The notes: generated by a model from the sequence alone, not told the origin. Positions 16,309-41,868 are shown, numbered from the stretch's first letter. The stretch is 64,000 bases of DNA from Candidatus Nanopelagicales bacterium (GCA_021741645.1 JAIOXK010000003.1:3504-67503), one strand, 5' to 3'. Program-made: numbers and translations.

Positions 16309-16406
16309 CCGTCTGGGGGAACTGCGGTTGGTTGCGGAGTTCCCTCCGACCGAGGAACTCCCGGAAAAACCACCCACCCCACTCATCCCTACGAGAAGGT
16401 TGCTCC

Positions 16407-21748: not shown

Positions 21749-23086
21749 ATGAAGAAGCTCACATCAATTGCTGCGGCCGGGGGCATCATGGTTGTGGGGG
21801 TCGCCAGTGCGACGCCCGCAATGGCGCACGGATATGTCAATGGCCCCGAGTCCCGTTCGATGCTGTGCAAGGCAGGCGTGAACACGGACTGTGGCGGCGT
21901 GCAATATGAGCCGCAGAGCCTTGAGGGGCTGAAGGGATTCCCTGCCGCTGGGCCCGCGGACGGACAGATCGCCTCGGCTGGGGGACTGTTCGGCGGCAAG
22001 CTCGACGAGCAGTCCGCTGATCGCTGGGCGAAGACGGATGTCACCACCGGTCCGATGCAGTTCGACTGGACATTCACCGCTCCCCACAAGACGAGTGGGT
22101 GGCACTACTACATGACCGAGCAGGGCTGGGACCCCAATGCGCCGCTGAACCGAGCGGAGTTGCAGGAGATCGGGGCGGTCGCTCATGACGGGTCCGCAGC
22201 CTCGAACAACCCGTCGCACCTCATCACGGTGCCGTCCGATCGCTCGGGGTATCACGTGATTCTGGCCGTGTGGGACATCGCAGACACGGTCAATGCGTTC
22301 TATCAGGTGATCGATGTGAACGTGGTCGGTGAGGGTTCCCCGGATGTCGTTCCGCCGTCGAGCCCGACCGGCCTCGAGGCTGTCGATATCGAATCGGGTC
22401 AGGCCACGCTCCGCTGGAGCCCCTCGCGTGACGACGTCGGCGTCAAGGGCTACACCGTGTATCGCGACGGTAGTCGCGTCGGATTCACGGCGGACACCAC
22501 GTTCATCGACACGGGTGTGCTGCCGGGCCGGTCCTACACATACTCGGTGGTGGCGGCCGATGCTGCAGGAAACCGCTCGGCTCAGAGCTCCGCGCTGAGT
22601 GTGACGACACCGCAGGCACCGGATGTTGATGAGTCCGCGCCCTCCGCGCCGACCTACCTGCACTCCATGGGTGTCACGCCATCGTCCGTCGACCTGATGT
22701 GGGGCGCGTCCAACGATGACGTCGCCGTCGCTGACTACCTGGTGTTCCGAGACGGCATCGCCATCGGATCCACCACCATGCCTCGTCTGATGGACGATGG
22801 GCTGGCGCCTGACCGCAGCTATGCGTACGTGGTCAAGGCCCGCGACGCAGCAGGAAATGTCTCGGAGGCCAGCAACACGCTGGTGATCCGCACGGAGGGG
22901 GTGCCTGCTCCGGACCCCACGCCGGAGCCGACACCGGGTGCTGAACCGTGGAGTGACCGTGGTGCCTACGCCAAGGGCGATCGGGTGACCTTCAATGGCG
23001 CGACGTACGAGTGCATTCAGGGGTACCAGGGCTGGGGTGATCCGAACTGGATCAACGCACCATCCCTGTGGACCCAGGTCTCCTGA
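21749..23086 (+). CDS. Secreted AA10 lytic polysaccharide monooxygenase with 2 FN3 modules and a C-terminal CBM5/12-like module
   Basis: The signal peptide ends AMA, followed by HGYVNGPESRSMLCK..GGVQYEPQSLEG (N-terminal His of AA10). Two ~90-aa FN3-like repeats (PTGLEAV..YTYSVVAADAAGNRS and PTYLHSM..YAYVVKARDAAGNVS). C-terminus WSDRGAYAKGDRVTFNGATYECIQGYQGWGDPNW. Confidence 0.85.
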   Translation: MKKLTSIAAAGGIMVVGVASATPAMAHGYVNGPESRSMLCKAGVNTDCGGVQYEPQSLEGLKGFPAAGPADGQIASAGGLFGGKLDEQSADRWAKTDVTTGPMQFDWTFTAPHKTSGWHYYMTEQGWDPNAPLNRAELQEIGAVAHDGSAASNNPSHLITVPSDRSGYHVILAVWDIADTVNAFYQVIDVNVVGEGSPDVVPPSSPTGLEAVDIESGQATLRWSPSRDDVGVKGYTVYRDGSRVGFTADTTFIDTGVLPGRSYTYSVVAADAAGNRSAQSSALSVTTPQAPDVDESAPSAPTYLHSMGVTPSSVDLMWGASNDDVAVADYLVFRDGIAIGSTTMPRLMDDGLAPDRSYAYVVKARDAAGNVSEASNTLVIRTEGVPAPDPTPEPTPGAEPWSDRGAYAKGDRVTFNGATYECIQGYQGWGDPNWINAPSLWTQVS

Positions 23087-23117
23087 CCCACCCGCAGGTA
23101 CGCACGTCTGATGTGAA

Positions 23118-23156
23118 CGTGATGGTCGAGCGCCGAATCGGCGCTCGACCATCACG
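23118..23156. terminator. Bidirectional stem-loop terminator between convergent LPMO and TPP-enzyme genes
   Basis: Perfect 18-bp stem (23118..23135 pairs with 23139..23156) with loop AAT, verified base by base. Confidence 0.7.
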
Positions 23157-23164
23157 CATCTGAA

Positions 23165-24802
23165 TCAGTCCTCGAACCACCGCGGAGACGTCGTGCGCGG
23201 CGGGTGGAATGGCTCCCGAAGCACCACGATGCGCGGCTCGCCACGGGTATTGGCCTCGTGCGACCGCGACAGTGCCGCGCCGATGCCGGCGACGTTCGCG
23301 ACCTCCTCCGTCGCAATGCCGAACGCCTTGCCGAGAGCGGTCCAGTCGGGAGTCAGCAGGTCGACCCCGCGCTCCGGGTGGCCGAACACCTGCTGGTCGA
23401 ATCGGAGCATGCCGTAGCCACCGTCGTCGACGACCAGCAGCGTGATCGGAAGTGACTCCTGCGCGTACGTCGCCAGCTCCCCGAGGGCGAACATCGGGCC
23501 GCCATCACCGCAGACGGCCAGGGTGGGGATACCCACCGATGCCGGGCCGATGGCGGCGGGGAGGGCGTAGCCGAGGGTCCCCCACCCGACCGGATACTGA
23601 AGGCGGCGGGGGCGCGGCTGGGAGCTGTAGCCGCCGTACCAGTAGGCGCCCACCGCCATGTCGCACACGATCGCACTGGACGCCGGCCACGCGCCATCGA
23701 TCTGATGCACCCAGGCGACTCCCGCGGAGCCGCGGGGGTCCTTGGCCAGACGAGCCATGATGGTCGGCCGGATTCCCGTGACGGCGACCCACGCAGCGCG
23801 CTCGCGCACCCCGGTGTCCTCGAGTGTCTCGTCCAGAGCCGCAAGAGTGAGCCCCACATCAGCGCGGATGACCGAGTTCCAGTCGATGGTCCTGGTGACC
23901 ACATCGCCGAGGGTCACCACCGCTCGTCGATCCGGGAGCGGGATCCGCCAGTTCTTGGTGTTCATCCCGTCGAAGGACGATCCGAGGACCAGAAGCAGGT
24001 CCGATTGCGCCAGCAGTTCTGACACCTCAGGCTCGTGGACGGGCGCATCGACCAGATGAGCATCGCCCGCTAGCAGGCCGCGGCCTGCGTAGCTCGTGAG
24101 CACGGGTGCACCGATGCGATGCGCGAGCGCGCGCAGGGACTCCTCTGCATCGGCTGCCACGACTCCGCCCCCGGCCCAGATGACCGGCCGTTGGCTGACG
24201 CTGATGAGCTCGGCCAGTACCGACACGTCATGCGGGTCCGGGGCGAGTGCAGGCAGGTGCGGGATGTGGGGGATGGCAGACGTCCAGGCCTCGCCAAGGA
24301 CGTCGGTGGGGATCCCGACGTAGCTGCCTGCGGCGGGTGGCCCCCACGCTTCACGGAGGGCGAGCACTGTGGAGGCGATGGCGTCCTGCCGCGTCCGTGC
24401 TCGCCTGGCCGTGGCTCCGAAGGCCTCGAACAGCGCCCCCTGATCGGCCATCTCGTGCAGGATGCCGCGGGGCCCCTCGGGTGATCGCAGCGACGCGTTC
24501 ACCTCGCTGGCGAAGGTGAGGACAGGTGAGCCGCTGACGAAGGCCTCCCCGAAGGCGGCAACCATGTTGGCCGCCCCGGGTCCACTCGTGAGCAGTGCTG
24601 CGGCGATCTCGCCGGTCGCCCTATGCAGGGCATCGCTTGCATAGCCGGCCGCCTGCTCATGCCGCACGCCGATGATTCGCGGGATGTCCGGGCCCTCGGC
24701 ATCCCAGAAGGGGAGGTTGTGGACACCGGGAATGCCGAACGCGCGCCGAACTCCGTGTCGCCCCAACAGGGTCAAGATGGCAGAGGCGACGGACGTGCTC
24801 AT
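23165..24802 (-). CDS. Thiamine-pyrophosphate-dependent enzyme (acetolactate-synthase-like family; substrate unknown)
   Basis: N-terminal PYR domain (FGIPGVHNLPFWDA, HEQAAGYASDA, TSGPGAANM). TPP-binding motif CGDGGPMF..x..VVDDGGYG. Confidence 0.8.
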   Translation of the reverse strand: MSTSVASAILTLLGRHGVRRAFGIPGVHNLPFWDAEGPDIPRIIGVRHEQAAGYASDALHRATGEIAAALLTSGPGAANMVAAFGEAFVSGSPVLTFASEVNASLRSPEGPRGILHEMADQGALFEAFGATARRARTRQDAIASTVLALREAWGPPAAGSYVGIPTDVLGEAWTSAIPHIPHLPALAPDPHDVSVLAELISVSQRPVIWAGGGVVAADAEESLRALAHRIGAPVLTSYAGRGLLAGDAHLVDAPVHEPEVSELLAQSDLLLVLGSSFDGMNTKNWRIPLPDRRAVVTLGDVVTRTIDWNSVIRADVGLTLAALDETLEDTGVRERAAWVAVTGIRPTIMARLAKDPRGSAGVAWVHQIDGAWPASSAIVCDMAVGAYWYGGYSSQPRPRRLQYPVGWGTLGYALPAAIGPASVGIPTLAVCGDGGPMFALGELATYAQESLPITLLVVDDGGYGMLRFDQQVFGHPERGVDLLTPDWTALGKAFGIATEEVANVAGIGAALSRSHEANTRGEPRIVVLREPFHPPRTTSPRWFED

Positions 24803-24804
24803 CC

Positions 24805-26352
24805 CTAGGCCCGAGAGTCGAACATGCCGAGGAGGGCGGCGATGCCCAGCACACTTCGTGGCGAGTAGGCCGCCCGCCAGAGACCTCCGTGGTTGGCCCC
24901 CTGTGCGAACAGGTCCATGGGGTTGGCCAAGGGTGTGCTCGGCTGAGCCGCTGCAGACGGATTGCGGAGGTCATGCACCAGGAGTGCAGCCATGAGCGTC
25001 GTCGTCGTCGGTGGGTCGAAGACCTCGACGCCAAAGCGCCCGGCACCGGCGTACGCGGCTGCTAGCGCCCGATTCTTGACGACGGAATTGGTGCGAGTGG
25101 CCGGGGCAAGATTCAAGGAGACAGGGACGCCGTCAGCCCGGGCGACGAGAGCACGCCAGCGCTGAAGGCGCTTGGCGAGGGCGTAGTTGGGTCCCTGCTG
25201 GGGCACCAGTGAGTCGTTGATGCCGAACACGTTGCCGTTGTCTGCGGTGTAGGTGCGCGTGTAGTTCGGCTCGAACTGCTTCAGCAGGCGCAGCGGCGTC
25301 TGGAGCAGACCGCCGATCCCTCGCGACTCCCATCTGCGCCGTGACTCCTCGACCGCCGCGAGGGGAACCATGAACACGTCCGTCGGCGTTGCGAGGTAGG
25401 CGAGGGTGACGTCCGTGCGAGTGGACGTGAGCTCGGTGACGATGGCGTCTGCGGCCATCGACAGCAGCACGTGGGCGGAGCCGTCCGCGTAGGCGTACAT
25501 GCCCATGACGAAGGGATTCTCGATCTGGCGCAGCCACGTCAGGAGTTCGGGAGTCTGGCGCAGGAGGTCTGCACCCGCATGAGTCGCGACGGCGTCGTCG
25601 TCCTCTGGATGCACGTGCCCGCCCACGACGAACGGGGGCTGGCCGTGGTCGTCCAGGGCCACCGGGATGCGGAGCGACCCTGCGGTGCTCCGAGTAGTGG
25701 AGATCAGGCGCTGCCAGATGTCCGGGCGCGGCAGGTCCACCGCATGGACGCGCGCTCCCCAGCGCAGCAGGGATCGAGTCGGGGCGAGTTCGGCCCCCGC
25801 TCCGAGCACGGCGATGTCGATATCCCGCAGGTCCATCCACTCCGGGTTGGCCACGATCAGGTCGATCGCCTCCGCGAAGCCGGGCTCGGCGATGCCCGTG
25901 CCAACCCAGGAGTCGATCTGCCGGCGCAGGTCGTCACCGAAGAGGCGACGTCCCTTGTAGGGAAGGGTGAGCCGCGTCTCGCGATCGGCGATGCCCTGCA
26001 CGGTGACGGATCCGAAGCCGGGCGCGGACCAGCGGCGCATCGCCTCCCAGAGCGGCAGCTGCTCGCCAGATCGGGAGAACACGAATCTGCGGTGAGCGGA
26101 CTCGAGGCCGTCACGCGAGACGGTGAGGGCAGCTTCACTGTTCATGGCAGAGGCGAGGGAGATGTCGCGCAGGGGGCCGATGTAGCCGCCGCGCCAGTCT
26201 GATGTGTGCTCGATCTGCGCTGCGATTCCGGGGTCCACTCTGCGGGCGCAGTCCGCGAACACCGCGCGTCCGGTCGCACTCGTGCTGCGCTGGCCGTCAC
26301 CGCCCGTGGGGAAGGCGACGCCTTCCATCTCGGTGCGGGGAACGTCAGCCAT
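24805..26352 (-). CDS. Conserved-looking 515-aa protein of unknown function with a central Rossmann-like segment
   Basis: Long ORF tightly packed between the ferredoxin-reductase and TPP-enzyme genes (2-nt and 9-nt gaps). IAVLGAGAELAPTRSLLRWGARVHAVD resembles a beta-alpha-beta dinucleotide-binding unit. I recognise no family. Confidence 0.6.
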   Translation of the reverse strand: MADVPRTEMEGVAFPTGGDGQRSTSATGRAVFADCARRVDPGIAAQIEHTSDWRGGYIGPLRDISLASAMNSEAALTVSRDGLESAHRRFVFSRSGEQLPLWEAMRRWSAPGFGSVTVQGIADRETRLTLPYKGRRLFGDDLRRQIDSWVGTGIAEPGFAEAIDLIVANPEWMDLRDIDIAVLGAGAELAPTRSLLRWGARVHAVDLPRPDIWQRLISTTRSTAGSLRIPVALDDHGQPPFVVGGHVHPEDDDAVATHAGADLLRQTPELLTWLRQIENPFVMGMYAYADGSAHVLLSMAADAIVTELTSTRTDVTLAYLATPTDVFMVPLAAVEESRRRWESRGIGGLLQTPLRLLKQFEPNYTRTYTADNGNVFGINDSLVPQQGPNYALAKRLQRWRALVARADGVPVSLNLAPATRTNSVVKNRALAAAYAGAGRFGVEVFDPPTTTTLMAALLVHDLRNPSAAAQPSTPLANPMDLFAQGANHGGLWRAAYSPRSVLGIAALLGMFDSRA

Positions 26353-26361
26353 GGTCGGAGA

Positions 26362-27546
26362 TTAGCAATGTGATCGGGCCGCGATTTCTTTGCGATAGGG
26401 GATGAGGTCAGAGGTGCGATCAATGCCCACCACGCCCACGAGTCCCAAGGGATCCCGGTACTCGACGATGCAGGGACCATTCAGGTCGCCGTCGACGAGA
26501 CTGATGTCCGTGGCCAGGCCCGGCATTCCGAATGACTGGATCCTAAGGGCGTACTGATCGGACCAGAAAGAGGGCATGGCGGTGAAGGGGGCCTCGCTAG
26601 GCGATTCCCCGCGGAGGATCTGTGCCAGTGTCTGTCCTGCTCGCCGTCCAGTCTCGGTGGGGATGCTCCAATGTTCGACTCGTCGCGGCGCTGAGCCGAA
26701 GAGGGCATTGGGGTGGCGAGCGATGTCTCCCACCGCGACCACGGGCGCCAGCTCGGTTGGCACCCGCATGGCGCTATCAGTCTCGACTCCGTCGCTCAGG
26801 TCGAGTCCGTTGCCCTCGAGCCACTCAACATTGGGCACGCTACCCACGGCTTCGATGAGCACATCGGCCAGAAGCTCCGTCCCGTCATCCAAGGTCACAC
26901 TTCGAACTTGGTCACCGCCATTGGTTGCTTCAATGGTGTGCCCGAGTCGAAAGTGCACCCCCTGAGCCTCATGGCGACGCCGCAACGCTGAACTCAACTC
27001 GTCACCAAGCGGCCGGACCATCGGCTCATGATCAGCGGCGATGACGGTCACGTGCGCGCCAAGTGCGCGTGCCGTGGCTGCAACCTCACACCCGAGGAAG
27101 CCGGATCCGAGAATGACCAGATTCAGTTCACGTCGAAGCCTTGCTCGGACTGCTGCAGCATCGGCAGCGGTGCGCAGCACGAATCGTCCTTGGGTCGGGC
27201 CGGGAAACGGTAGCCGTCGTGGTCTGATGCCTGTTGCGATGACGAGCGCGTCGAAGGGCACGGCCTCACCGGTATCGAGGGTGAGAAGGCGGTCGGTCAG
27301 ATCAGTTTTCGTGATCGTGGAGTTGACCATCCAGTCGACATCGTCGACGGAGGACTTTCGTGGAAACTCCAGAGCCTCAACGTCGACGCCGTTGAGCAGG
27401 GCCCCCTTCGAAAGGGGAGGTCGGTTGTACGGCATGGAGTCCTCGTTGCCGATGACCGTGAGGGGACCCGCGAAACCGCTCGCACGCAATGACTCTGCGG
27501 TCCGAAGCGCTCCGAGTCCGCCGCCTGCTACGACCACACCATTCAT
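26362..27546 (-). CDS. NAD(P)H-dependent ferredoxin reductase (FAD, pyridine-nucleotide disulfide oxidoreductase fold)
   Basis: VVVAGGGLGALRTAESLR..YNRPPLSK and a second GSGFLGCEVA motif. Start set to ATG 27546 (MNGVVVAGGG). The track ORF extends to 27585. Confidence 0.8.
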   Translation of the reverse strand: MNGVVVAGGGLGALRTAESLRASGFAGPLTVIGNEDSMPYNRPPLSKGALLNGVDVEALEFPRKSSVDDVDWMVNSTITKTDLTDRLLTLDTGEAVPFDALVIATGIRPRRLPFPGPTQGRFVLRTAADAAAVRARLRRELNLVILGSGFLGCEVAATARALGAHVTVIAADHEPMVRPLGDELSSALRRRHEAQGVHFRLGHTIEATNGGDQVRSVTLDDGTELLADVLIEAVGSVPNVEWLEGNGLDLSDGVETDSAMRVPTELAPVVAVGDIARHPNALFGSAPRRVEHWSIPTETGRRAGQTLAQILRGESPSEAPFTAMPSFWSDQYALRIQSFGMPGLATDISLVDGDLNGPCIVEYRDPLGLVGVVGIDRTSDLIPYRKEIAARSHC

Positions 27547-27554
27547 TTTCAGAC

Positions 27555-27743
27555 CTAGGAAACGGTGATCGCCTGCATGGGACACATGTCGGCAGCCCGT
27601 TCCGCGTCGTCCCGCCGTTCGTCTCCGACGCCGCTGGTCGGCACGCTGACGCCGTCGTCATCCAGTTCAAACAGGTCCTCAGACTCGAGAACACACTGGC
27701 CATAGCCCTCGCACTTCGCACGATCCACCACGATGGTGAGCAT
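27555..27743 (-). CDS. Small [3Fe-4S]/[4Fe-4S]-type ferredoxin (P450 redox partner type)
   Basis: 62-aa protein with MLTIVVDRAKCEGYGQCV....CPMQAI. ATG 27743 follows AGGAGG. Confidence 0.8.
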   Translation of the reverse strand: MLTIVVDRAKCEGYGQCVLESEDLFELDDDGVSVPTSGVGDERRDDAERAADMCPMQAITVS

Positions 27744-27784
27744 CACGCGGAACCTCCTCTGTGAATAGGGTAGGCACAAGACAT

Positions 27785-27800
27785 TGTTCGGACCCTAATG
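27785..27800. promoter_or_regulatory. Operator-like palindrome, copy 1 (TGTTCGGACCCTAATG; reverse complement CATTAGGGTCCGAACA)
   Basis: One of four near-identical 16-mers in island promoters. It sits 42 nt upstream of the ferredoxin ATG, in the divergent region shared with the PuuD-like gene. Confidence 0.6.
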
Positions 27801-27891
27801 GACAATGGGGCAGCGGTTTGTCTTCGCCACCAGTTCAGGCGCGTGAGGCGATCTGCTGGCGAAGGGTCAACGACCGAGAACGGAGTAGTAC

Positions 27892-28590
27892 ATGGCTGCG
27901 CGACCGCGGATTGCGATTCTTGGACGCTTCACCGAGTCCGCGAGTGCGCTGCGCTACCGGGGTGTGATCTCGGCTCGAGCGCTTCTCGACGCCGTATGGG
28001 CGGCCGGAGGTGATCCTGTGACGCTGCTTCCCGGCGACGACCCCGAGGCGCTTGACTGGAGCGCACGACTGGCCGGTTTCGGTGCGGTTCTCCTGGCCGG
28101 CGGAGGTGACATCGATCCTCGACACTATGGGGGTGACCACCAGCACCACTCCGTGTACGACGTGGATCAGGTGCAGGACACGGCTGATCTGTCCCTAGCC
28201 TCTTACTGCCTGACATGGGGCATGCCGACGCTTGCGGTATGCCGTGGGATGCACATCGTGAACGTTGTGCGCGGCGGATCTCTTATCGTGGACATGCCGA
28301 AGAATCATCGGAACGTCGTTCAGGAAATCCGACTTGGCGAAGGCTCCGCACCCTTGGGAATCGGAGATGATCGCGTCACCATAAGTTGCTACCACCATCA
28401 GGCGATCGACCGACTGGGTGCTGGAATGAAGGTCGTTTCGCGATCCGATGACGGCACTGTCGAAGCGGTCGTCATTGACGCACCGGCGTGGGCAGTGGGC
28501 GTTCAGTGGCACCCTGAGGACACGTGGTCAACGGACCCAGCGCAGGTTCGATTGCTGAGAACTCTGGTGGAACACGCTCGCGGGCGTTGA
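27892..28590 (+). CDS. Gamma-glutamyl-gamma-aminobutyrate hydrolase family protein (PuuD-like, peptidase C26, class I GATase)
   Basis: Nucleophile elbow LAVCRGMHIVNVVRGG and GVQWHPE. Confidence 0.8.
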   Translation: MAARPRIAILGRFTESASALRYRGVISARALLDAVWAAGGDPVTLLPGDDPEALDWSARLAGFGAVLLAGGGDIDPRHYGGDHQHHSVYDVDQVQDTADLSLASYCLTWGMPTLAVCRGMHIVNVVRGGSLIVDMPKNHRNVVQEIRLGEGSAPLGIGDDRVTISCYHHQAIDRLGAGMKVVSRSDDGTVEAVVIDAPAWAVGVQWHPEDTWSTDPAQVRLLRTLVEHARGR

Positions 28591-28626
28591 ACGCTCGTCG
28601 GTCGGCAGTGGATGACCGGTGAAGGA

Positions 28627-29436
28627 CTAGAGGGGTCGAGAGGAGTCTGCCAGCAGAGTGCCGCCTGCAAAGGTGGTGCCAACCTCACAGTAGTAGCCGC
28701 CGATGACCTCGTCCACGGGAAGCAGGCGTGCGGGCTCGTCCCACGGTGAGTTGAAGAGGGAGAGCTCAGCATCGCCCTTCCACGGTTGTCCGAGGTCCAC
28801 GTCAATGCCGCCCATGGTCACGATCTGCTCCATCGACATGCCTGCGCCAGGGACCAGAGATGGCATGTAGCGGTGGTGGAGCATCTTGTGCGCATTGACA
28901 AAGCCGTTCGACTCGGCCGGCTCACGCAAGGTGACTCTTGCCTGCGCGATCCGGTGGTCGTAGGCGGCAAGTGAGGCACCGAAGGTGCCGCCTTCGCCGA
29001 TCCGAGGGGCGGCGATTCCGCGGTTGTACGGGCGGGTGACATAGATGCTGCCGAGCTTCTTGGGATAACCCTGGAACCAGCCGCGACCAATCGCAAAGTC
29101 CGTGGTCACCCAGATCAGGACGCAGCGGCTGTAGGTGACCCCTTGGTACTTTGTGCGGACCACGACGAATGCCTCGAGGTATTGCGAGCGGGCCGGGTCG
29201 AGGAGTTCCTCCCCACCAGTGCTGCAGGACTGCCAGTCGGCCCAGATAAAGGCGACTGCGCCCGGGTCCTCATCGGCCAGATCCAGGTCCGGAGGCAGGA
29301 TCGCGCGAACGTTCGCGGGATCCGTCCGGTACTCGACCGTCAGGAGGGTTCCGGAGTAGTGCCAGGGCATCTCCGGGATGAGGGCGGTGCGGCCGGAATC
29401 GGTGTAGGGCGGCAGAAATCCTCGGGAGTGGGTCAT
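28627..29436 (-). CDS. Acetoacetate decarboxylase-like superfamily protein
   Basis: 269-aa ORF with PPYTDSGRTALIPEMPWHYSGTLLTVEYRTDPANVRAILPP, typical of the ADC family N-terminus. Last gene of the meta-cleavage operon. Confidence 0.65.
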   Translation of the reverse strand: MTHSRGFLPPYTDSGRTALIPEMPWHYSGTLLTVEYRTDPANVRAILPPDLDLADEDPGAVAFIWADWQSCSTGGEELLDPARSQYLEAFVVVRTKYQGVTYSRCVLIWVTTDFAIGRGWFQGYPKKLGSIYVTRPYNRGIAAPRIGEGGTFGASLAAYDHRIAQARVTLREPAESNGFVNAHKMLHHRYMPSLVPGAGMSMEQIVTMGGIDVDLGQPWKGDAELSLFNSPWDEPARLLPVDEVIGGYYCEVGTTFAGGTLLADSSRPL

Positions 29437-30332
29437 GGGCGGTTGTTCACCTGATCCTTTGCCTCGGTGACCGTGGACGGATACAGGTCCTTGGACGGTG
29501 TGCGAATCCCGCGGAACTCCCAGTCGCCACCCATGGCAGTGGAGACGACCTCTTCACTCTCGGTGGGCTGGGCACCGCAGTCATCACGGATGGGGGCTGG
29601 GCCCTGAACAATCGTGTTGGAGAGGGTTCCGATCCCTTCGACCTCGACCTCGACGACATCGCCGGGGTAGACGGTCCGCGAGAAGGCGGGTGTTCCGGAG
29701 AACAGGACATCTCCGGGAACGAGGGTGATGGTTCGCGCGATGTCGGCGACGAGGTAGTTCATGTCCCACTCCATCTCGGCCGTGGTGGAGTCCTGCTTGA
29801 CGACTCCGTTGACGCGCGTCTGGATCCCCTTGTTGCGGAAGTCCCAGTCCGTGACGAGCCCGGGACCGATGGGGGCCAGAGTGTCGGAGCCCTTCACCCG
29901 GAGCATCGATCCGGCGTCGGTGTCGCGGAAGTCGTGCAGCCCGTAGTCGTTTCCGACCGTGTAGCCAGCGATGTAGTCCCCGGCCTCGTCAGGCGAGATA
30001 TTGCGGCAGGTCCGGCCGATGACGATGACGATCTCGCCCTCGTAGTTCAGCCACTTGCAGCGCTCGGGACGGACCACGTCCCCTCTGTGCGAGTTGAGTG
30101 CGGTGATCGGCTTGTGGAAGTAGGTGGGGGCGGCGGGGAGCTTCGTCATGAACTCCTCGGTGCGGGAGGCGTAGTTCAAGTGCACCGCAATGATCTTTGT
30201 CGGCTCCACTGGGGGCAGGTGGACGGCTTCTTCGACTCCGACGGTGCGCCCGTCTGGTGCTGCGAGCTCGTCACCGTGTCGGACGACCTGAACGGGAGCT
30301 CCCTCGAGGAGGATGCGCCGGTACTCCGTCAT
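29433..30332 (-). CDS. Fumarylacetoacetate hydrolase family protein (HpaG/OPET-decarboxylase-like)
   Basis: FAH-fold motifs (KIIAVHLNYASR, YEGEIVIVIG, GDVLFSGTP). ATGA overlaps on both sides. Confidence 0.8.
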   Translation of the reverse strand: MTEYRRILLEGAPVQVVRHGDELAAPDGRTVGVEEAVHLPPVEPTKIIAVHLNYASRTEEFMTKLPAAPTYFHKPITALNSHRGDVVRPERCKWLNYEGEIVIVIGRTCRNISPDEAGDYIAGYTVGNDYGLHDFRDTDAGSMLRVKGSDTLAPIGPGLVTDWDFRNKGIQTRVNGVVKQDSTTAEMEWDMNYLVADIARTITLVPGDVLFSGTPAFSRTVYPGDVVEVEVEGIGTLSNTIVQGPAPIRDDCGAQPTESEEVVSTAMGGDWEFRGIRTPSKDLYPSTVTEAKDQVNNRP

Positions 30333-31234
30333 GCCATAGCTCCCTTACCTGTCCATCCCGATTCCGGGCGGTCGAACCACACATGCACCTGACTTGTTCC
30401 AATTGAGTTCTCATAGTCGGAGATCTGGCGACCGGATGCCACAAAGTCACGCTCGCCCAGGGCGGCGGCCATCATCAGGTAGTGCGCGAACTTGGCCTCC
30501 GGCCGCACGGTGAGGAACTCGTCCATCGTGTCGAGCACCGTGTCGTGTCGCCCCTCGGACATCCATGCCAGACGCTCGTAGTCCATTTCGCGAGCCTTGT
30601 CACTGAAGAGGTACTTGGGGTCTGAGCGCTCCACCTCGGGGTTCGTGCGGATCTCGCGCAGGGGGTAGAAGGTGTGCGACATCGATCCGGTCGCGATGAC
30701 GATGACCTTGCGGTCGACGTCGGCGATGGCCTGCCCGATCGCACGTCCGACGCGCAGGTAGTCCTCGGTATCAGCTGTCTGGCAAACGCTCATCGACAGC
30801 CACTGCTTGTCGAGTCCTCTTCCGAGGTACGACCAGATGTTGATGCTGGGGTAGTACAGCGGGAGGTACTCATCGTCATTCGGGGTGATCCAGGTGCCCT
30901 GCTCGTCAGCATGGGAGGCGATCGCATGAGCGAACTCCGGGTCCCCGCGCCACTCGTAGGGGATTCGGCACATTCCCCGGGGGAGTTCCTCGGCCGTGAA
31001 GAGCCCGGCTCGTCTATTGTGCGCGGTGACGACGAACTCGACCGTGGTGAACCAGTGGGAGTCGAGGACGAGGACGGTGTCGTAATCCATGGCCTCGAAG
31101 ACGTCCTTGCGGAGCTTCTCGAGCGCTGGGACAAGGGATATCTCCTTGCCGTCGTTCAACTCCAGTCGAGTCTCACGCGGGAGCATGATCGTCGGAACGT
31201 GAGACAGCAACCCTGCGGCGACGAACTCACCCAT
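30329..31234 (-). CDS. Class III (LigB-type) extradiol dioxygenase, homoprotocatechuate 2,3-dioxygenase-like
   Basis: SHVPTIML, VLDSHWF and ATGSMSHTF parallel E. coli HpcB/HpaD motifs (THVPSMYL, DTHWL, ASGSLSHRF; recalled). Start ATG 31234 lies 2 nt after the ALDH stop. The first 73 codons of the track ORF overlap the ALDH gene and are rejected. Confidence 0.75.
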   Translation of the reverse strand: MGEFVAAGLLSHVPTIMLPRETRLELNDGKEISLVPALEKLRKDVFEAMDYDTVLVLDSHWFTTVEFVVTAHNRRAGLFTAEELPRGMCRIPYEWRGDPEFAHAIASHADEQGTWITPNDDEYLPLYYPSINIWSYLGRGLDKQWLSMSVCQTADTEDYLRVGRAIGQAIADVDRKVIVIATGSMSHTFYPLREIRTNPEVERSDPKYLFSDKAREMDYERLAWMSEGRHDTVLDTMDEFLTVRPEAKFAHYLMMAAALGERDFVASGRQISDYENSIGTSQVHVWFDRPESGWTGKGAMA

Positions 31235-31236
31235 GC

Positions 31237-32700
31237 CTAGCCCTTCCATCCGTTCGGTGCGTAGACCGTGTTCTTGACATCGGCGTAGAAGTCGAAGGAC
31301 CACAGGCCGCCCTCGCGCCCGATTCCTGACTTCTTCGATCCGCCGAAGGGTGCGGAGAGATCGCGGACGAAGAAGCAGTTCACCCAGATGGTCCCGGCGA
31401 CGAGGAACCGGCAGAAGTCCTCCGCCCTCATCCGGCTGCCGCTGACGACGCACGCCGCGAGGCCGAACTCGGTGCCGTTGGCAAGATCAAGGCCCTCCTC
31501 GTCGGTATCGAAGACCTGCATGGTGAGGACCGGCCCGAAGACCTCCTGGGTCAGGATCTCACTGCCCTGGGGAGCATCGACGATGAGCGTGGGTCTGAAG
31601 TAGTGCGATCCCAATTCGGTGTTGACTTCGCCGCCGTAGGCGAGGGTCGCGCCGTCGGAAACCGCGCGATCGACGAAGGCCTGCACCCGCTCGATGTGCG
31701 TAAGGTGGATGTTCGGCCCGATCTGAGTCTCCTCATTGCGCGGGTCGCCCTGCGTGATCTGGCCCGCGCGCTCACGGAATCGCTCGATGAAGGCGTCGGC
31801 GACACCACGTTGAACGAGCAGCCGGGTGCCCGCCAGGCACACCTGGCCCGCGTTGTCGTACTGCTCGATGGCTAGATCGACGGCAAGGTCCAGATCAGCA
31901 TCGTCCAGGATGACGGTGGGACTCTTGCCACCCAGCTCGAACGAGCACGGAGTCAGATTGTCAGCGGCCGCATGAGCGATGACCTTCGCGGTGGGCACTG
32001 ACCCGGTGAAGCAGATGCGCGAAACGTCGGGGTTGGAGGTCAGGGGTGCTCCGGCTTCCGCGCCGAACCCCTGCACGACGTTGAAGACGCCCGCGGGCAG
32101 GCCGGCCCTATGGGCCAGGTCAGCGAAGTAGGAAGCGGTGAGAGGTGCCCACTCCGGTGGCTTCAGGACGACTGTGTCGCCGGAGGCAAGAGCAGGTCCG
32201 ATCCGCCAGGTGGCGAGCATGAGGGGCGCGTTCCAGGGCGTGATGATGACGGCGACTCCGGAGGGATCCCACGACACGTGGTTGGTATGCCCACGAGTCT
32301 CGAACTCTGGGTGGCTGAGGCGATTCATCGCGTAGTCAGCGAAGAAGCGGATGTTCATTGCGACGCGAGGCATGACTCCTCGGCGATGGGATCGCAGGAG
32401 CGAGCCGTTGTCGAGCGTCTCGATCTGGGCTAGCTCTTCAACGTGCTCGTCGATCGAGTCGGCCAGACGGAGAAGGATCTCGCCGCGCTCGGCGGGCGAC
32501 ATGCGCGACCACGTGAGGAAAGCCTCCCTGGCGGCGGCCACGGCGGCATCCGCCTCGAGCTTCCCACCGCGCGAGATCTGACCGAGGACGGATCCGTCCA
32601 CCGGAGAGACGGTGTCGAAGGTGCTGTCGGACGCGACGCGTGTGCCACCGATCCAATGCCGGGTGTCGATGTCGACCCCGGCGATGGTGATCGAGGTCAT
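31237..32700 (-). CDS. Aldehyde dehydrogenase (5-carboxymethyl-2-hydroxymuconate semialdehyde dehydrogenase-like)
   Basis: ALDH catalytic motifs (ELGGKSP, FFVRDLSAPFGG region) and Cys region CLAGTR. First gene of the operon with the LigB dioxygenase. Confidence 0.8.
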   Translation of the reverse strand: MTSITIAGVDIDTRHWIGGTRVASDSTFDTVSPVDGSVLGQISRGGKLEADAAVAAAREAFLTWSRMSPAERGEILLRLADSIDEHVEELAQIETLDNGSLLRSHRRGVMPRVAMNIRFFADYAMNRLSHPEFETRGHTNHVSWDPSGVAVIITPWNAPLMLATWRIGPALASGDTVVLKPPEWAPLTASYFADLAHRAGLPAGVFNVVQGFGAEAGAPLTSNPDVSRICFTGSVPTAKVIAHAAADNLTPCSFELGGKSPTVILDDADLDLAVDLAIEQYDNAGQVCLAGTRLLVQRGVADAFIERFRERAGQITQGDPRNEETQIGPNIHLTHIERVQAFVDRAVSDGATLAYGGEVNTELGSHYFRPTLIVDAPQGSEILTQEVFGPVLTMQVFDTDEEGLDLANGTEFGLAACVVSGSRMRAEDFCRFLVAGTIWVNCFFVRDLSAPFGGSKKSGIGREGGLWSFDFYADVKNTVYAPNGWKG

Positions 32701-32740
32701 GGGTCTCCTCTGATGGGCCTACGGACGCCCTATCCTAGAT

Positions 32741-32756
32741 CGTTCGGACCCAAACG
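32741..32756. promoter_or_regulatory. Operator-like palindrome, copy 2 (CGTTCGGACCCAAACG)
   Basis: 41 nt upstream of the ALDH start codon (32700). Preceded by GAT, as in copies 3 and 4. Confidence 0.6.
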
Positions 32757-32786
32757 GAAAGTGCTTTGTCGGATCCGACGAAGAGG

Positions 32787-33284
32787 TCACTTCGTGTTGA
32801 CGGCCTTGACGAGCAGTCGCAGCGTCTCAGCCGTGTCCTCCTTGCTGCCGACTGGCAGCAGGCGACTTGAGTAGGTCTCCTGCTCATTGATTTGCGGGAA
32901 GAGGCTGGTGATCAAGCGGGTGCCTGACTTGGTGAGGGTCACCCTGACCAACCGGCCATCGTCCACACTCTTGGTGCGTCGAACGAGCTTCCGCTTCTCA
33001 AGAGTGGTGAGCACGCCGCTGAGAGTGGCCTTCGAGACGCCTGCCTCATCGGCGATGACTCGCGTTTCCGCACCATCCCAGATCCAGACGACCCAGAGGA
33101 CCACGAATGCCGTCCAGGTCAGATCCACCGGCGTGAGGACGTGACGCTCCATGTGGTTGCGGACGGCATTTGCGGCGCGAAAGAGGTTGGAGATCACGCG
33201 CATGGACTCGAAATCCATGGCCAGGCCGGCAATCTTTGATTCAGCGGCACGCTCTGTCTCCAGAAGGGTATGCGGTCCCGCCAC
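32787..33284 (-). CDS. MarR family transcriptional regulator
   Basis: wHTH core (LTWTAFVVLWVVWIWDGAETRVIADEAGVSKATLSGVLTTLEKRKLVRR). GTG 33284 follows GGGAGG. Confidence 0.8.
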   Translation of the reverse strand: MAGPHTLLETERAAESKIAGLAMDFESMRVISNLFRAANAVRNHMERHVLTPVDLTWTAFVVLWVVWIWDGAETRVIADEAGVSKATLSGVLTTLEKRKLVRRTKSVDDGRLVRVTLTKSGTRLITSLFPQINEQETYSSRLLPVGSKEDTAETLRLLVKAVNTK

Positions 33285-33383
33285 GCTGCCTCCCTTGTCC
33301 GGTCATCGAACCCTAGACGATGGGTGGCGGACCGGCCTGTCGGGTCCGTTCGTGGACCCGGGTCGATGCGCGAGGTGGTCGGC

Positions 33384-34376
33384 TCACAGGTCGATCGACA
33401 GGTGGCCGGACTTCCAGCGGGAGACGCAGATCATCATCGTCTCGTTGCTGGCGCGTTCCTCGTCATTCAGGATGGAATCGCGATGGTCGACCTCGCCGCT
33501 GAGAACGACGGTCTCGCAGGTGCCGCAGATGCCCTCGTGGCACGAGCCGAGCACGCTCACCCCGTTATCCTGTGCGGTGTCGAAGATGGACCTGTCTGCG
33601 GGCACGGTGATGGTGATCCCGGTGCGCGCGAGTTCGACCTCGAACTCGGAGTCGACAGCCCCGTCGATCACCTTGGGCGAGAACCGCTCGACATGGAGTG
33701 CACCTGCGGGCCAGGCGGCGCAGCGCGCTTCCACGGCGGTCAGGAGCCCCTCTGGGCCGCAGGCATAGACCAGAGTGTCGGGGCGTACGGTGCCCAGCCG
33801 CTCATCGAGGGCAGCGGACATGGCAGAGATGTCGTCGCCGGGCAGCAGGGTGATGCGGTCGCCGTAGGCCGTGAGCTCGTCAGTGAATCCCATCGACGAT
33901 GCGCTGCGACCGCCGTAGGCCAGTGTCCAGTCCGATCCCGCCTCGTTGGCCTCGGCGATCATGGGCAGGATCGGGGTGATCCCCACACCTCCGGCGATGA
34001 ATACGTAGCGCGGCGAGGGGACCAGCGGAAAGTGGTTTCGGGGTCCGCGAACATGCATCGTGCTCCCGCGCGACGCGTTCTCGTGGACGAAGCGTGACCC
34101 CCCTCGACCGTCAGGGGCGTTGAGCACTCCCACGCGGTAGGCGAAGCGGTCTGCTGGCGAACCGCAGAGTGAGTACTGGCGGGTGATCTCGGGAGTGAGG
34201 TCCATGTCGATGTGGGCACCGGGAGCCCACTCGGGCAGCGGCAGGCCGTCAGGATGGCGCAGGGTCAGGACCAGGAGGTCGTCGGCGACAACATCACGGG
34301 ACTCAACGATCGCATCGCACTCGAACTCCACCGCCGACTCGATCGCTGCAGTGTCGGTCGTTGCCGTGTGAGACAT
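33384..34376 (-). CDS. PDR/VanB-type oxidoreductase (FMN/NAD-binding plus C-terminal plant-type 2Fe-2S)
   Basis: YVFIAGGVGITPILPM and the C-terminal cluster motif CHEGICGTCETVV. Its start lies 3 nt downstream of the P450 gene stop. Confidence 0.85.
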   Translation of the reverse strand: MSHTATTDTAAIESAVEFECDAIVESRDVVADDLLVLTLRHPDGLPLPEWAPGAHIDMDLTPEITRQYSLCGSPADRFAYRVGVLNAPDGRGGSRFVHENASRGSTMHVRGPRNHFPLVPSPRYVFIAGGVGITPILPMIAEANEAGSDWTLAYGGRSASSMGFTDELTAYGDRITLLPGDDISAMSAALDERLGTVRPDTLVYACGPEGLLTAVEARCAAWPAGALHVERFSPKVIDGAVDSEFEVELARTGITITVPADRSIFDTAQDNGVSVLGSCHEGICGTCETVVLSGEVDHRDSILNDEERASNETMMICVSRWKSGHLSIDL

Positions 34377-34379
34377 GGG

Positions 34380-35639: not shown

Positions 35640-35664
35640 CGCGTCTCCAGGTGCTGTGGAAGAT

Positions 35665-41862: not shown

Positions 41863-41868
41863 ATCTGC

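What the first reader, a model, noticed from the sequence alone, without database searches (positions are those of the whole stretch)
23165..27743. Operon ferredoxin - ferredoxin reductase - unknown 515-aa protein - TPP enzyme: an orphan enzyme in a redox/TPP context
Four minus-strand genes are packed with gaps of 8, 9 and 2 nt. The operon is headed by operator copy 1. The third gene (24805..26352) encodes a 515-aa protein that matches no family I recognise. It has only a Rossmann-like stretch (IAVLGAGAELAPTRSLLRWGARVHAVD) in the middle. This operon contains no P450, although it supplies a P450-type Fdx/FdR pair. Two of the island P450s (37973, 41925) lack a dedicated reductase. Inference: the unknown protein and the ALS-like TPP enzyme carry out an undescribed C-C bond-forming or -cleaving step coupled to the pathway, and the Fdx/FdR pair serves the P450s in trans.
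Basis: partly seen in the sequence, partly recalled or inferred. Interest (0 to 1): 0.6.

Follow-up and report, generated by a model that had tools for sequence, protein, structure and literature searches.

The report
Uncharacterised reductase-like gene beside TPP enzyme
The 515-aa "orphan" belongs to a very large protein family that no curated database describes; it looks like a distant ketoreductase, and it sits next to the thiamine enzyme and the ferredoxin genes because intervening genes were lost, not because the four form an old shared pathway.

Summary
Four minus-strand genes sit with gaps of 8, 9 and 2 nt: a 3Fe-4S ferredoxin, a ferredoxin reductase, a 515-aa protein and a TPP enzyme. 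The 515-aa protein (UNK) matches nothing in Pfam, NCBIfam or PDB sequences.

UNK is not rare. It has over 6,000 homologues in Actinomycetota and across Acinetobacter. In many eukaryotes it is fused to the 3-hydroxyacyl-CoA dehydratase domain.

A confident AlphaFold model (pLDDT 90) matches FAS/PKS ketoreductase domains and classical SDRs. An invariant YxxxK, a Gly-rich loop and an NAD-type Asp lie on the expected secondary-structure elements.

The "operon" is a mosaic:
- Near-identical strains have lost Fdx/FdR but keep UNK-TPP.
- A TANNNT hexamer lies exactly at -12..-7 of the UNK start codon in most relatives, which predicts a separate leaderless promoter.
- More distant TPP orthologues lack UNK and pair with a divergent aldehyde dehydrogenase/DAO-oxidase operon. 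This marks the TPP enzyme as an AruI-like 2-oxoacid decarboxylase.
- Fdx/FdR most plausibly serve the neighbouring P450s.

A joint UNK+TPP C-C step coupled to the island pathway is therefore only weakly supported. UNK itself is a worthwhile new SDR-fold family of unknown substrate.

The parts
27555..27743 (-). 62-aa single-cluster ferredoxin with motif C11-E-G-Y-G-Q-C17...C54-P (CxxYxxC(x)nCP), the P450-type 3Fe-4S class
   Evidence: Pfam Fer4_15 at 3.9e-17 and Fer4_13; translation; motif class described in PMC6237146
27753..27757 (-). GGAGG Shine-Dalgarno sequence, 9 nt upstream of the ferredoxin ATG
   Evidence: Read directly from the sequence
27766..27797 (.). 32-nt palindrome TAGGGTAGGCACAAgacaTTGTTCGGACCCTA in the divergent Fdx / Peptidase_C26 intergenic region. 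It is the candidate operator. Its half-site GTTCGGACCC recurs at 32741, 35671 and 36520.
   Evidence: (0 matches expected by chance)
26362..27546 (-). NAD(P)H:ferredoxin reductase, 394 aa from the ATG (alternative GTG start at 27585)
   Evidence: Pfam Pyr_redox_2 at 5.7e-53, Pyr_redox and Reductase_C; best NCBIfam models are HcaD/AndAa-type ferredoxin reductases, below their cut-offs
26359..26364 (-). TAATCT, a TANNNT -10-like hexamer at -12..-7 of the UNK start codon, preceded by TGc. It overlaps the FdR stop codon TAA (26362-26364). Predicted promoter for a leaderless UNK-TPP mRNA.
   Evidence: The same hexamer sits at the same offset in 19 of 24 species loci, with at most 1 at any other offset from -40 to -6, and in 12 of 12 further loci. 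Mycobacterial -10 rule from PMC3898074. No experimental TSS is available.
24805..26352 (-). UNK, 515 aa: member of an unannotated family with an SDR/ketoreductase-like fold. Layout: N-terminal ~170-aa helical/beta domain, Rossmann core, amphipathic C-terminal helix.
   Evidence: No Pfam, NCBIfam or PDB sequence match. AF2 model with pLDDT 89.9 and pTM 0.90. Foldseek best hit yeast FAS 9p4v at E 3.4e-6, then SQD1, LovB KR, classical SDRs (TM 0.57-0.59 normalised to target) and PKS KRs.
25735..25818 (-). Nucleotide-binding beta-alpha-beta, residues 179-206: strand 1, Gly-rich loop LGAGAELAP, helix, strand 2 ending in D206 (the NAD-type acidic residue)
   Evidence: Secondary structure of the model. 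G184, A185, P191 and D206 are invariant across actinobacterial, Acinetobacter and eukaryotic members.
25171..25185 (-). Y390-A-L-A-K394, the candidate SDR catalytic YxxxK, within the motif QQGPNYALAKRLQxWR near the N-terminus of helix 384-406
   Evidence: Y390 and K394 are invariant in alignment A4. Position on the helix.
23165..24802 (-). 545-aa TPP-dependent enzyme of the ALS/POX superfamily. It starts 2 nt after the UNK stop codon. Most likely an AruI-like 2-oxoacid decarboxylase.
   Evidence: TPP_enzyme_N/M/C. Best NCBIfam models are PRK07064, PRK08266 and PRK07524 (5-guanidino-2-oxopentanoate decarboxylase), all below cut-off. Orthologues are paired with ALDH + DAO oxidase.
26371..52276 (.). 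Strain-variable region between backbone genes UNK and EamA (52277..53239). Contents: Fdx/FdR, Peptidase_C26, ADC, FAA_hydrolase, LigB, 3 Aldedh, MarR, GntR, 3 P450, Fer2 reductase, 2 GS-like, 2 GATase, luciferase-like, permease, Zn-ADH, CoA_transf_3, acyl-CoA dehydrogenase.
   Evidence: Pfam. blastn breakpoints against L003/L004 and L087.

Best explanation
The four genes are a mosaic of three modules brought together by gene loss.

(1) Fdx-FdR. This is a P450-type electron-transfer pair at the edge of a strain-variable amine/aromatic catabolic region. It is expressed from an operator-controlled promoter shared with the divergent Peptidase_C26 gene, and it most likely feeds the nearby P450s.

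(2) UNK. This is a chromosomal-backbone gene from a large, unannotated family with a short-chain dehydrogenase/ketoreductase fold.
- Shown: the fold match, the conserved Gly-rich loop, the Asp at the end of strand 2, and YxxxK on the catalytic helix.
- Inferred: it uses NAD(H) with Tyr390/Lys394 to interconvert a carbonyl and a hydroxyl, probably on an acyl thioester or another lipophilic substrate. The basis is that eukaryotic members are fused, in both domain orders, to the 3-hydroxyacyl-CoA dehydratase (PTPLA/HACD) domain.
- Inferred: it has its own -10 element (TAATCT at -12..-7), so that transcription starts at the ATG and gives a leaderless mRNA.

(3) TPP enzyme. This is an AruI-like 2-oxoacid decarboxylase.
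- Its older partners are a divergent aldehyde dehydrogenase and a DAO-type FAD amino-acid oxidase. Together these would run amino acid -> 2-oxoacid -> aldehyde -> acid.
- In this clade that ALDH-DAO operon, which lay between UNK and TPP, was lost.
- The TPP gene now lies 2 nt behind UNK and is presumably translated by coupling from the UNK transcript.

Loss of a PLP decarboxylase gene between FdR and UNK then produced the 9-nt FdR-UNK junction seen here.
For: Fold and motifs:
- AF2 model with pLDDT 89.9.
- Foldseek hits with probability 1.0 to the yeast FAS chain 9p4v_1 (E 3.4e-6), LovB KR, classical SDRs and PKS KRs.
- Invariant G184, D206, T324, Y390, K394, P417 and T421 across three kingdom-level groups.

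Fusions: 18 of 20 long members scanned carry PF04387, at either end. They occur in choanoflagellates, Arcella, Thecamonas and many diatoms.

UNK as a backbone gene:
- Synteny glgC-like / GT4 / EamA / UNK.
- Stand-alone with unrelated neighbours in distant Actinomycetota and in Acinetobacter.

Mosaic structure:
- L003, L004 and a JGI contig (99% aa identity) have CoA_transf_3 instead of Fdx/FdR. Homology with the window starts 18 nt before the UNK ATG.
- L087/L088 keep only the last ~325 nt of FdR.
- A PLP decarboxylase lies between FdR and UNK in 11 genome loci and several metagenome loci, but is absent from this window.

Own promoter:
- TANNNT at exactly -12 in 19 of 24 plus 12 of 12 loci, whatever the upstream gene.
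- More distant relatives have GGAG-type Shine-Dalgarno sequences at that position instead.
- This agrees with the mycobacterial promoter rule.

TPP enzyme:
- The 20 orthologues at >=69% identity with enough upstream DNA all have UNK upstream.
- 40 of 41 orthologues at 43-56% identity lack UNK and have a divergent ALDH upstream. In the two loci examined that operon also encodes a DAO oxidase, plus an acyl-CoA dehydrogenase in one.
- L111, L031 and L032 show the intermediate arrangement UNK(+) DAO(-) ALDH(-) TPP(+).
- The named NCBIfam model among the top three is 5-guanidino-2-oxopentanoate decarboxylase.

Fdx/FdR for P450s: motif class and the conserved P450-MarR-...-Fdx-FdR cluster.
Against: - No experiment supports any of this. 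No TSS data exist, so read-through from the Fdx promoter into UNK-TPP is not excluded. No terminator-like site was found in 22900..28000.
- The SDR assignment rests on fold and motif positions. Sequence-profile methods fail: hhalign against E. coli FabG aligns only the Gly-rich loop, with probability 0.5%.
- The usual Ser-to-Tyr spacing and the NNAG motif are not kept.
- Within the window's clade, UNK-TPP adjacency with a 2-nt gap or an overlap is strictly conserved (20 of 20). This could reflect a functional coupling acquired later.
- FdR lies next to UNK in genomes where no Fdx or P450 was found within 8 kb (L016, L018, L023). The 'P450 only' role does not explain this.
- One family member (P0127) has Val at the Lys394 position.
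- The HACD fusion is eukaryotic. No PTPLA gene lies near any bacterial UNK.
Confidence: 0.6

Rival explanations
1. Fdx-FdR-UNK-TPP is one functional operon of the island pathway. UNK and the ALS-like TPP enzyme together make or break a C-C bond on a pathway intermediate. For example, the TPP enzyme forms or cleaves an acyloin or 2-oxoacid, and UNK reduces or oxidises the adjacent carbonyl, much as acetolactate synthase and acetoin reductase work together.
For: - Tight spacing and no terminator-like site.
- The operator half-site is shared with three island promoters.
- The arrangement Aldedh-LigB-FAA_hydrolase-Fdx-FdR-(PLP decarboxylase)-UNK-TPP recurs in at least seven species-level genomes.
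- UNK-TPP adjacency is 20 of 20 in the clade.
- A ketoreductase next to a TPP enzyme is chemically sensible.
Against: - UNK-TPP persists under purifying selection in strains without the island.
- The deeper partners of TPP are ALDH and DAO, not UNK.
- UNK is mostly stand-alone.
- A conserved -10-like element lies at the UNK start.
Confidence: 0.2
2. The FdR-like flavoprotein is a dedicated redox partner of UNK, together with the PLP decarboxylase where that gene is present. It would not be, or not only be, a P450 reductase. FdR-(decarboxylase)-UNK would then form a small pathway of its own in freshwater Nanopelagicales.
For: - FdR lies directly upstream on the same strand in 19 of 29 loci with UNK >=64% identical.
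- This includes low-GC genomes (GC 0.52-0.54) where no Fdx or P450 was detected within 8 kb: L015, L016, L018, L019 and L023-L025.
Against: - FdR is absent next to UNK in all loci below 60% identity, in Acinetobacter, and in the island-less strains.
- The -10-like hexamer separates UNK from FdR transcriptionally.
- UNK has its own dinucleotide-binding site.
Confidence: 0.07
3. UNK is not a catalytic oxidoreductase. It would be a structural or regulatory pseudo-enzyme, for example a scaffold that binds HACD-like membrane enzymes.
For: - No sequence-level match to any SDR model.
- Non-canonical Gly-rich motif and Ser/Asn positions.
- PKS ketoreductases contain a non-catalytic pseudo-KR subdomain of similar fold (general knowledge).
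Against: Tyr, Lys, the strand-2 Asp and the Gly-rich loop are invariant from actinobacteria to diatoms. This pattern is typical of active sites.
Confidence: 0.03

Closest known systems
Ketoreductase (KR) domains of fungal type I FAS and of polyketide synthases ('complex' SDRs), and classical SDRs such as FabG / 3-ketoacyl reductases
   Same: - Rossmann core with the same order of elements.
- Gly-rich loop after strand 1.
- Acidic residue at the end of strand 2.
- YxxxK near the start of the catalytic helix.
- N-x-x-P-x-T-x-T after the next strand, comparable to the SDR NxxxPGxxxT.
- Extra N-terminal subdomain, as in FAS/PKS KRs.
- Best structural matches.
- A link to the fatty-acyl elongation cycle through the HACD fusions.
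   Different: - No detectable sequence similarity to adh_short, KR or Epimerase models.
- 515 aa as a free-standing protein.
- A 65-residue insertion between the strand-5 Thr/Thr-Asp and the Tyr.
- YAYADG in place of NNAG.
- Asp206 suggests NAD, whereas biosynthetic KRs typically use NADPH.
- Substrate unknown.
5-guanidino-2-oxopentanoate (2-ketoarginine) decarboxylase AruI, with KauB aldehyde dehydrogenase and DauA-type FAD amino-acid dehydrogenase (Pseudomonas arginine catabolism; recalled from general knowledge)
   Same: - The TPP enzyme's only functionally named model among its top three NCBIfam matches is PRK07524.
- Its orthologues sit next to an ALDH and a DAO-family FAD oxidase. These are the same three enzyme types.
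   Different: - Scores are about half the family cut-off (244 vs 500 bits).
- The ALDH best resembles piperideine-6-carboxylate / KGSA dehydrogenases.
- The substrate is therefore probably a different amino acid.
- In this window the ALDH-DAO partners are missing.
Actinobacterial P450 redox chains: CxxYxxC(x)nCP 3Fe-4S ferredoxin plus FAD ferredoxin reductase (M. marinum Fdx3/FdR1/CYP147G1)
   Same: Same ferredoxin motif class and size, and the same reductase domain architecture (PMC6237146).
   Different: No P450 in the same transcription unit. The nearest P450 is 6.6 kb away.
Catabolic acetolactate synthase / acetoin reductase (budB-budC) pairing
   Same: A TPP enzyme of the ALS superfamily lies beside an SDR-fold reductase.
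   Different: - The TPP enzyme fails every ALS equivalog cut-off.
- There is no acetolactate decarboxylase.
- The adjacency is evolutionarily recent.

Membership tests
Short-chain dehydrogenase/reductase (SDR) superfamily | Rossmann fold with a Gly-rich dinucleotide-binding loop after strand 1 | tested here: met
   Strand 179-183 followed by LGAGAE(L/M)(A/G)P. G184, A185 and P191 are invariant. Foldseek probability 1.0 to SDRs and KRs.
Short-chain dehydrogenase/reductase (SDR) superfamily | Catalytic Tyr-x-x-x-Lys at the N-terminus of the helix after strand 5 | tested here: met
   Y390 and K394 are invariant in A4, near the start of helix 384-406. One outlier has Val at the Lys position.
Short-chain dehydrogenase/reductase (SDR) superfamily | Catalytic Ser about 13 residues before the Tyr, and Asn / NNAG motif at strand 4 | tested here: not met
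   The candidates T322/T324 lie 66-68 residues before Y390. Strand 4 is followed by YAYADG, not NNAG.
Short-chain dehydrogenase/reductase (SDR) superfamily | Match to a curated SDR sequence model (adh_short, adh_short_C2, KR, Epimerase) | tested here: not met
   No Pfam or NCBIfam hit for the window protein or for 26 relatives. hhalign against FabG gives probability 0.5%.
Short-chain dehydrogenase/reductase (SDR) superfamily | NAD(P)(H) binding and hydride transfer | not testable with these tools
   Needs purified protein.
Acetolactate synthase (ALS/AHAS) large subunit | TPP_enzyme N, M and C domains with the catalytic Glu and the GDG...(N/D)(N/D) Mg-TPP motif | tested here: met
   Pfam. E49 in VRHEQAAGY and GDGG...DDGGYG, read from the translation.
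Acetolactate synthase (ALS/AHAS) large subunit | Score above the equivalog cut-off of an ALS model | tested here: not met
   Best ALS model TIGR00118 scores 175 bits against a cut-off of 538. Every ALS model listed is far below its cut-off.
AruI-like 2-oxoacid decarboxylase (PRK07524 subfamily) | Score above the subfamily cut-off | tested here: not met
   244 bits against a cut-off of 500.
AruI-like 2-oxoacid decarboxylase (PRK07524 subfamily) | Genomic association with an aldehyde dehydrogenase and an amino-acid oxidase or transaminase | tested here: inconclusive
   Met in orthologues at 43-56% identity: divergent ALDH in 40 of 41, and DAO in the two loci examined. Not met in this window, where those genes are absent beside the TPP gene.
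P450-type ferredoxin / ferredoxin reductase pair | Small single-cluster Fdx with CxxXxxC(x)nCP, plus an FAD reductase with Pyr_redox_2 + Reductase_C | tested here: met
   motif class in PMC6237146.
P450-type ferredoxin / ferredoxin reductase pair | Electron transfer to a P450 | not testable with these tools
   Only the genomic association with P450 genes was seen.
Single four-gene operon | One promoter, no internal transcription start | tested here: inconclusive
   Same strand, short gaps and no terminator-like site. However, a conserved TANNNT at -12..-7 of the UNK ATG argues for an internal leaderless start.

The most novel reading that the evidence does not exclude
UNK would define a previously unrecognised class of NAD(P)-dependent 3-oxoacyl/3-hydroxyacyl-thioester oxidoreductase. 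In diatoms, choanoflagellates, amoebozoans and apusozoans it is physically fused to the HACD dehydratase, giving a two-step reductase-dehydratase (or hydratase-dehydrogenase) module of very-long-chain fatty-acid metabolism that current annotation labels only as 'HACD'. The bacterial stand-alone forms, found across Acinetobacter and widely in freshwater Actinomycetota, would then act in an undescribed lipid or acyl-CoA pathway.
Probability: 0.3. Interest if true: 0.75.

Novelty: new variant of a known kind. Interest (0 to 1): 0.55.

Why it matters
- A family of this size has no curated model and no known function. It has over 6,000 90%-identity clusters and 1,825 50%-identity clusters. It occurs in at least 592 species genomes and in abundant freshwater bacteria, and it appears across the genus Acinetobacter and in many protists.
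- Placing it in the SDR/ketoreductase fold and linking it to HACD gives a concrete, testable biochemical hypothesis. It also flags a mis-annotated second domain in hundreds of eukaryotic 'HACD' proteins.
- The locus is a clear example of how tight gene spacing can imitate an operon. Three unrelated modules were joined by deletions, and the promoter of a leaderless gene overlaps the stop codon of the gene before it.

Tried and rejected
- Sphingosine-1-phosphate lyase / alpha-oxidation idea (PF00282 enzyme + HACL-like TPP enzyme). Rejected: the PLP enzyme of relatives is closest to Trp/DOPA/Lys decarboxylases, with S1P lyase only at 1.7e-8. The TPP enzyme scores 125 bits against the 600-bit cut-off of the HACL model.
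- Organosulfonate idea (Xsc-like TPP enzyme, a TauD neighbour in one Burkholderiaceae locus, sulfatase genes near the Acinetobacter gene). These are single or non-operonic occurrences only.
- CoA-transferase III + TPP as an Frc/Oxc-like pair. CoA_transf_3 lies near UNK-TPP only in a few strains.
- A bacterial PTPLA gene near UNK: none found.
- Conserved neighbours of distant UNK homologues: none. The neighbours were GlnE, PEPCK, a P-type ATPase, M20 and M36 peptidases, MobA and MoeA.
- Riboswitch or tRNA in the window: none.
- Sigma-70 promoter and terminator consensus scan of 22900..28000: nothing found.
- Profile search of PDB sequences: only non-significant hits to SDR N-termini.
- Literature searches for the HACD fusion or for this family found nothing relevant.

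Full report
**1. The observation**

The window is about 65% G+C. Four co-directional minus-strand ORFs occupy 23165..27743:
- ferredoxin, 27555..27743
- ferredoxin reductase, 26362..27546, taking the ATG that precedes the GxGxxG motif (the longest ORF begins at GTG 27585)
- a 515-aa protein, here called UNK, 24805..26352
- a 545-aa TPP enzyme, 23165..24802

The next gene is a convergent LPMO_10-fn3-CBM5_12 gene at 21749..23086, so the unit ends at the TPP gene.

Pfam confirms Fer4_15, Pyr_redox_2 + Reductase_C, and TPP_enzyme_N/M/C. UNK matches nothing:
- no Pfam or NCBIfam family at E<=0.1
- no PDB sequence
- none of 26 diverse relatives matches a Pfam family even at E<=5

UNK and the TPP gene are real genes. 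Against a 97%-identical relative they differ at 31 synonymous vs 5 non-synonymous codons and at 35 vs 6.

**2. What UNK is**

UNK is not an orphan in the sense of being rare.
- The word-indexed search found 6,114 homologues, almost all 505-520 aa and all labelled 'hypothetical'.
- The exhaustive search found 1,825 50%-identity clusters.
- At least 592 species genomes carry it. The closest 80 are almost all Actinomycetota: many Nanopelagicales MAGs, plus cultured Longivirga, Phycicoccus, Pedococcus and Phytoactinopolyspora.
- It is present in many Acinetobacter species.

About one in six of the best 150 representatives are 630-800 aa. Of 20 such proteins scanned, 18 carry PF04387 (PTPLA, the very-long-chain 3-hydroxyacyl-CoA dehydratase HACD/PHS1). 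The domain sits at the N-terminus in ten and at the C-terminus in eight. These are eukaryotic proteins from choanoflagellates, a dinoflagellate, a chytrid, Arcella, Thecamonas trahens and many diatoms. Databases annotate them only as HACD.

A first AlphaFold model built on close relatives had pLDDT 79.8. A second, built on an alignment spanning actinobacteria, Acinetobacter and eukaryotes, reached pLDDT 89.9 and pTM 0.90. Foldseek of the second model against the PDB gave:
- yeast fatty-acid synthase chain 9p4v_1 (the FAS subunit I take to carry the ketoreductase domain) as the best hit, E 3.4e-6, probability 1.0
- then SQD1, the LovB ketoreductase, and classical SDRs (TM 0.57-0.59 normalised to the target, rmsd about 5.3 Å)
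- then A-type PKS ketoreductases and the high-molecular-weight FabG of A. baumannii

The conserved residues fall where an SDR needs them:

| SDR element | In UNK |
|---|---|
| Gly-rich loop after strand 1 | strand 179-183, then LGAGAE(L/M)(A/G)P |
| acidic residue ending strand 2 (NAD-type position) | invariant D206 |
| catalytic Ser position after strand 5 | T322-P-T324-D325, after strand 315-321 |
| YxxxK on the catalytic helix | invariant Y390 and K394 near the start of helix 384-406, in the motif QQGPNYALAKRLQxWR |
| NxxxPGxxxT after the next strand | N414-L-A-P417-A-T419-R-T421, after strand 411-415 |

There are departures from canonical SDRs:
- The protein is twice the usual size, with a ~170-residue N-terminal domain.
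- It has a 65-residue insertion before the Tyr.
- There is no NNAG motif.
- There is no sequence-level similarity. hhalign against FabG aligns only the Gly-rich loop, and a profile search of PDB sequences gives only non-significant SDR N-termini.

I therefore call UNK a new, highly divergent lineage of the SDR/ketoreductase fold. The inference that it acts on a 3-oxo- or 3-hydroxy-acyl thioester rests on the HACD fusions and on the FAS/PKS-KR structural matches. It is not shown. No PTPLA gene lies near any bacterial UNK.

**3. The genomic context is a mosaic**

Backbone synteny in this actinobacterial group is glgC-like(-) / GT4(+) / EamA(+) / UNK(+). In the window these backbone genes are at 54462..55685, 53236..54393 and 52277..53239.

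Between EamA and UNK the window carries 25.9 kb (26371..52276). It holds Fdx/FdR, Peptidase_C26, ADC, FAA_hydrolase, LigB, three ALDHs, MarR, GntR, three P450s, a Fer2 reductase, two glutamine-synthetase-like genes, two GATases, a luciferase-like oxygenase, a permease, a Zn-ADH, a CoA-transferase III and an acyl-CoA dehydrogenase. I read this as a gamma-glutamyl-amine plus homoprotocatechuate-type catabolic region. That reading is an inference from the family names.

Comparison with other assemblies:
- Three independent assemblies whose UNK is 99% identical (L003, L004, a JGI contig) lack this region. Homology with the window begins only 18 nt upstream of the UNK ATG and resumes at EamA.
- L087 and L088 (97% identical DNA) retain just the last ~325 nt of FdR.
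- L107 shows the same arrangement as the window at 98% identity.
- Species-level relatives (UNK 69-80% identical) carry Aldedh-LigB-FAA_hydrolase-Fdx-FdR-PLP decarboxylase-UNK-TPP. Several of them also carry Peptidase_C26, and some a P450 and MarR, at the upstream end.
- That PLP decarboxylase (PF00282) is closest to Trp/DOPA/Lys decarboxylases. It is absent from the window.

The 9-nt FdR-UNK junction is therefore the scar of that gene's loss.

**4. UNK probably has its own promoter**

The 18-20 nt before the UNK ATG are conserved whatever lies upstream. They contain TANNNT exactly at -12..-7.
- The hexamer is at that offset in 19 of 24 species loci with UNK >=64% identical, with at most one occurrence at any other offset from -40 to -6.
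- It is there in 12 of 12 further metagenomic loci.
- More distant relatives have GGAG-type Shine-Dalgarno sequences at that position instead.

In M. tuberculosis, TANNNT lies 7-12 bp upstream of 73% of primary transcription start sites, there is no -35 consensus, and leaderless mRNAs are common (PMC3898074).

In the window the hexamer is TAATCT (26359..26364), preceded by TGc. Its first three bases are the FdR stop codon. There is no Shine-Dalgarno sequence before UNK. By contrast, Fdx has GGAGG 9 nt upstream of its ATG.

I infer a leaderless UNK-TPP transcript that is independent of the Fdx promoter. Read-through is not excluded, because no terminator-like site was found.

**5. The TPP enzyme**

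It fails every named equivalog cut-off. Its best models are PRK07064 (unnamed), PRK08266 and PRK07524, the 5-guanidino-2-oxopentanoate decarboxylase (257-244 bits). ALS models reach at most 175 bits against cut-offs of 509 bits and above. The best PDB relatives are ALS, HACL and similar enzymes at E of about 1e-33 to 1e-39, without discrimination between them.

A reciprocal scan from the TPP side was decisive.
- The 20 orthologues at >=69% identity with enough upstream DNA all have UNK immediately upstream.
- Of 41 orthologues at 43-56% identity, 40 lack UNK and have a divergently transcribed aldehyde dehydrogenase directly upstream.
- In the two loci examined, that operon also encodes a DAO-family FAD amino-acid oxidase, plus an acyl-CoA dehydrogenase in L147.
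- L111, L031 and L032 show the intermediate arrangement UNK(+) DAO(-) ALDH(-) TPP(+).

The old functional partners of this TPP enzyme are thus an amino-acid oxidase and an aldehyde dehydrogenase. That is the enzyme set of an amino acid -> 2-oxoacid -> aldehyde -> acid route, as in DauA/AruI/KauB (recalled from general knowledge). The UNK-TPP adjacency arose in one clade when the ALDH-DAO operon between them was lost. The TPP gene now follows UNK by 2 nt or overlaps it, so it probably depends on the UNK transcript.

**6. Fdx/FdR**

The ferredoxin has CxxYxxC(x)nCP. This is the class of 3Fe-4S ferredoxins shown to support actinobacterial P450s together with an FAD reductase (PMC6237146).

The divergent Fdx/Peptidase_C26 intergenic region holds a 32-nt palindrome. 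Its half-site GTTCGGACCC recurs at three other island intergenic regions, which suggests a shared regulator.

One observation remains unexplained. FdR stays next to UNK in low-GC Nanopelagicales loci where no Fdx or P450 was detected within 8 kb.

**7. Verdict**

The proposed joint UNK+TPP C-C step coupled to the island is weakened by the comparative evidence.

UNK is the interesting part. It is a large, unannotated, SDR-fold family with a strong fusion link to HACD. I rate it a new variant of a known kind, with interest 0.55.

Noticed in passing
window 21749..23086 (+): A secreted-type LPMO_10 (AA10) with fn3 and CBM5/12 domains is convergent with the TPP gene. The 463-aa ORF on the opposite strand (21764..23155) has no Pfam match and is probably a shadow ORF.
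   Followed up: partly
window 26371..52276; L003, L004, L087, L088, L107: This 25.9-kb region is polymorphic among near-identical strains. L003/L004 replace it with a single CoA_transf_3 gene. L087/L088 keep a ~325-nt 3' remnant of FdR fused to DNA 77% identical to window 44908..47333. L107 has the same arrangement as the window.
   Followed up: partly
window 36569..37927, 44113..45588 (GS-like); 27892..28590, 35709..36443, 45589..46284 (Peptidase_C26/GATase); P450s at 34380, 37973, 41925: Two glutamine-synthetase-like genes, three amidotransferase/hydrolase genes, three P450s and three ALDHs lie in the region. The gene set looks like duplicated gamma-glutamylation (Puu/Ipu-like) amine catabolic modules.
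   Followed up: no
window 27822..27864: A second inverted repeat (CTTCGCCACCAGTTC / GATCTGCTGGCGAAG, 13-nt loop) lies in the same intergenic region, just upstream of the Peptidase_C26 start. Its function was not examined.
   Followed up: no
window 16261..16270 (-): One more copy of the half-site CGTTCGGACC lies outside the island, in the 15048..16241 / 16287..17195 intergenic region.
   Followed up: no
L110-L166 (e.g. L147 1002..6644; L111 721..6659): In many freshwater metagenome contigs the TPP orthologue is divergently paired with an ALDH directly upstream. In the two loci examined the operon also encodes a DAO-type FAD oxidase, plus an acyl-CoA dehydrogenase in L147. The ALDH is closest to piperideine-6-carboxylate / KGSA dehydrogenases but below their cut-offs.
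   Followed up: partly
proteins P0191, P0432, P0438, P0440, P0489, P0495 and others: Hundreds of eukaryotic proteins annotated as 'very-long-chain 3-hydroxyacyl-CoA dehydratase' carry an unannotated ~500-aa UNK domain. Some unfused eukaryotic members end in a predicted transmembrane helix.
   Followed up: partly
L085 7001..8557; L086 7001..8548: In Acinetobacter the orthologue is a stand-alone gene with an unusually long (~500-nt) upstream intergenic region. It lies between a sulfatase/FGE-sulfatase pair and a PHO4 transporter.
   Followed up: no
window 28627..29436 (-): An acetoacetate-decarboxylase-family gene follows the Aldedh-LigB-FAA_hydrolase genes here. It is absent from the corresponding cluster of L001.
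   Followed up: no
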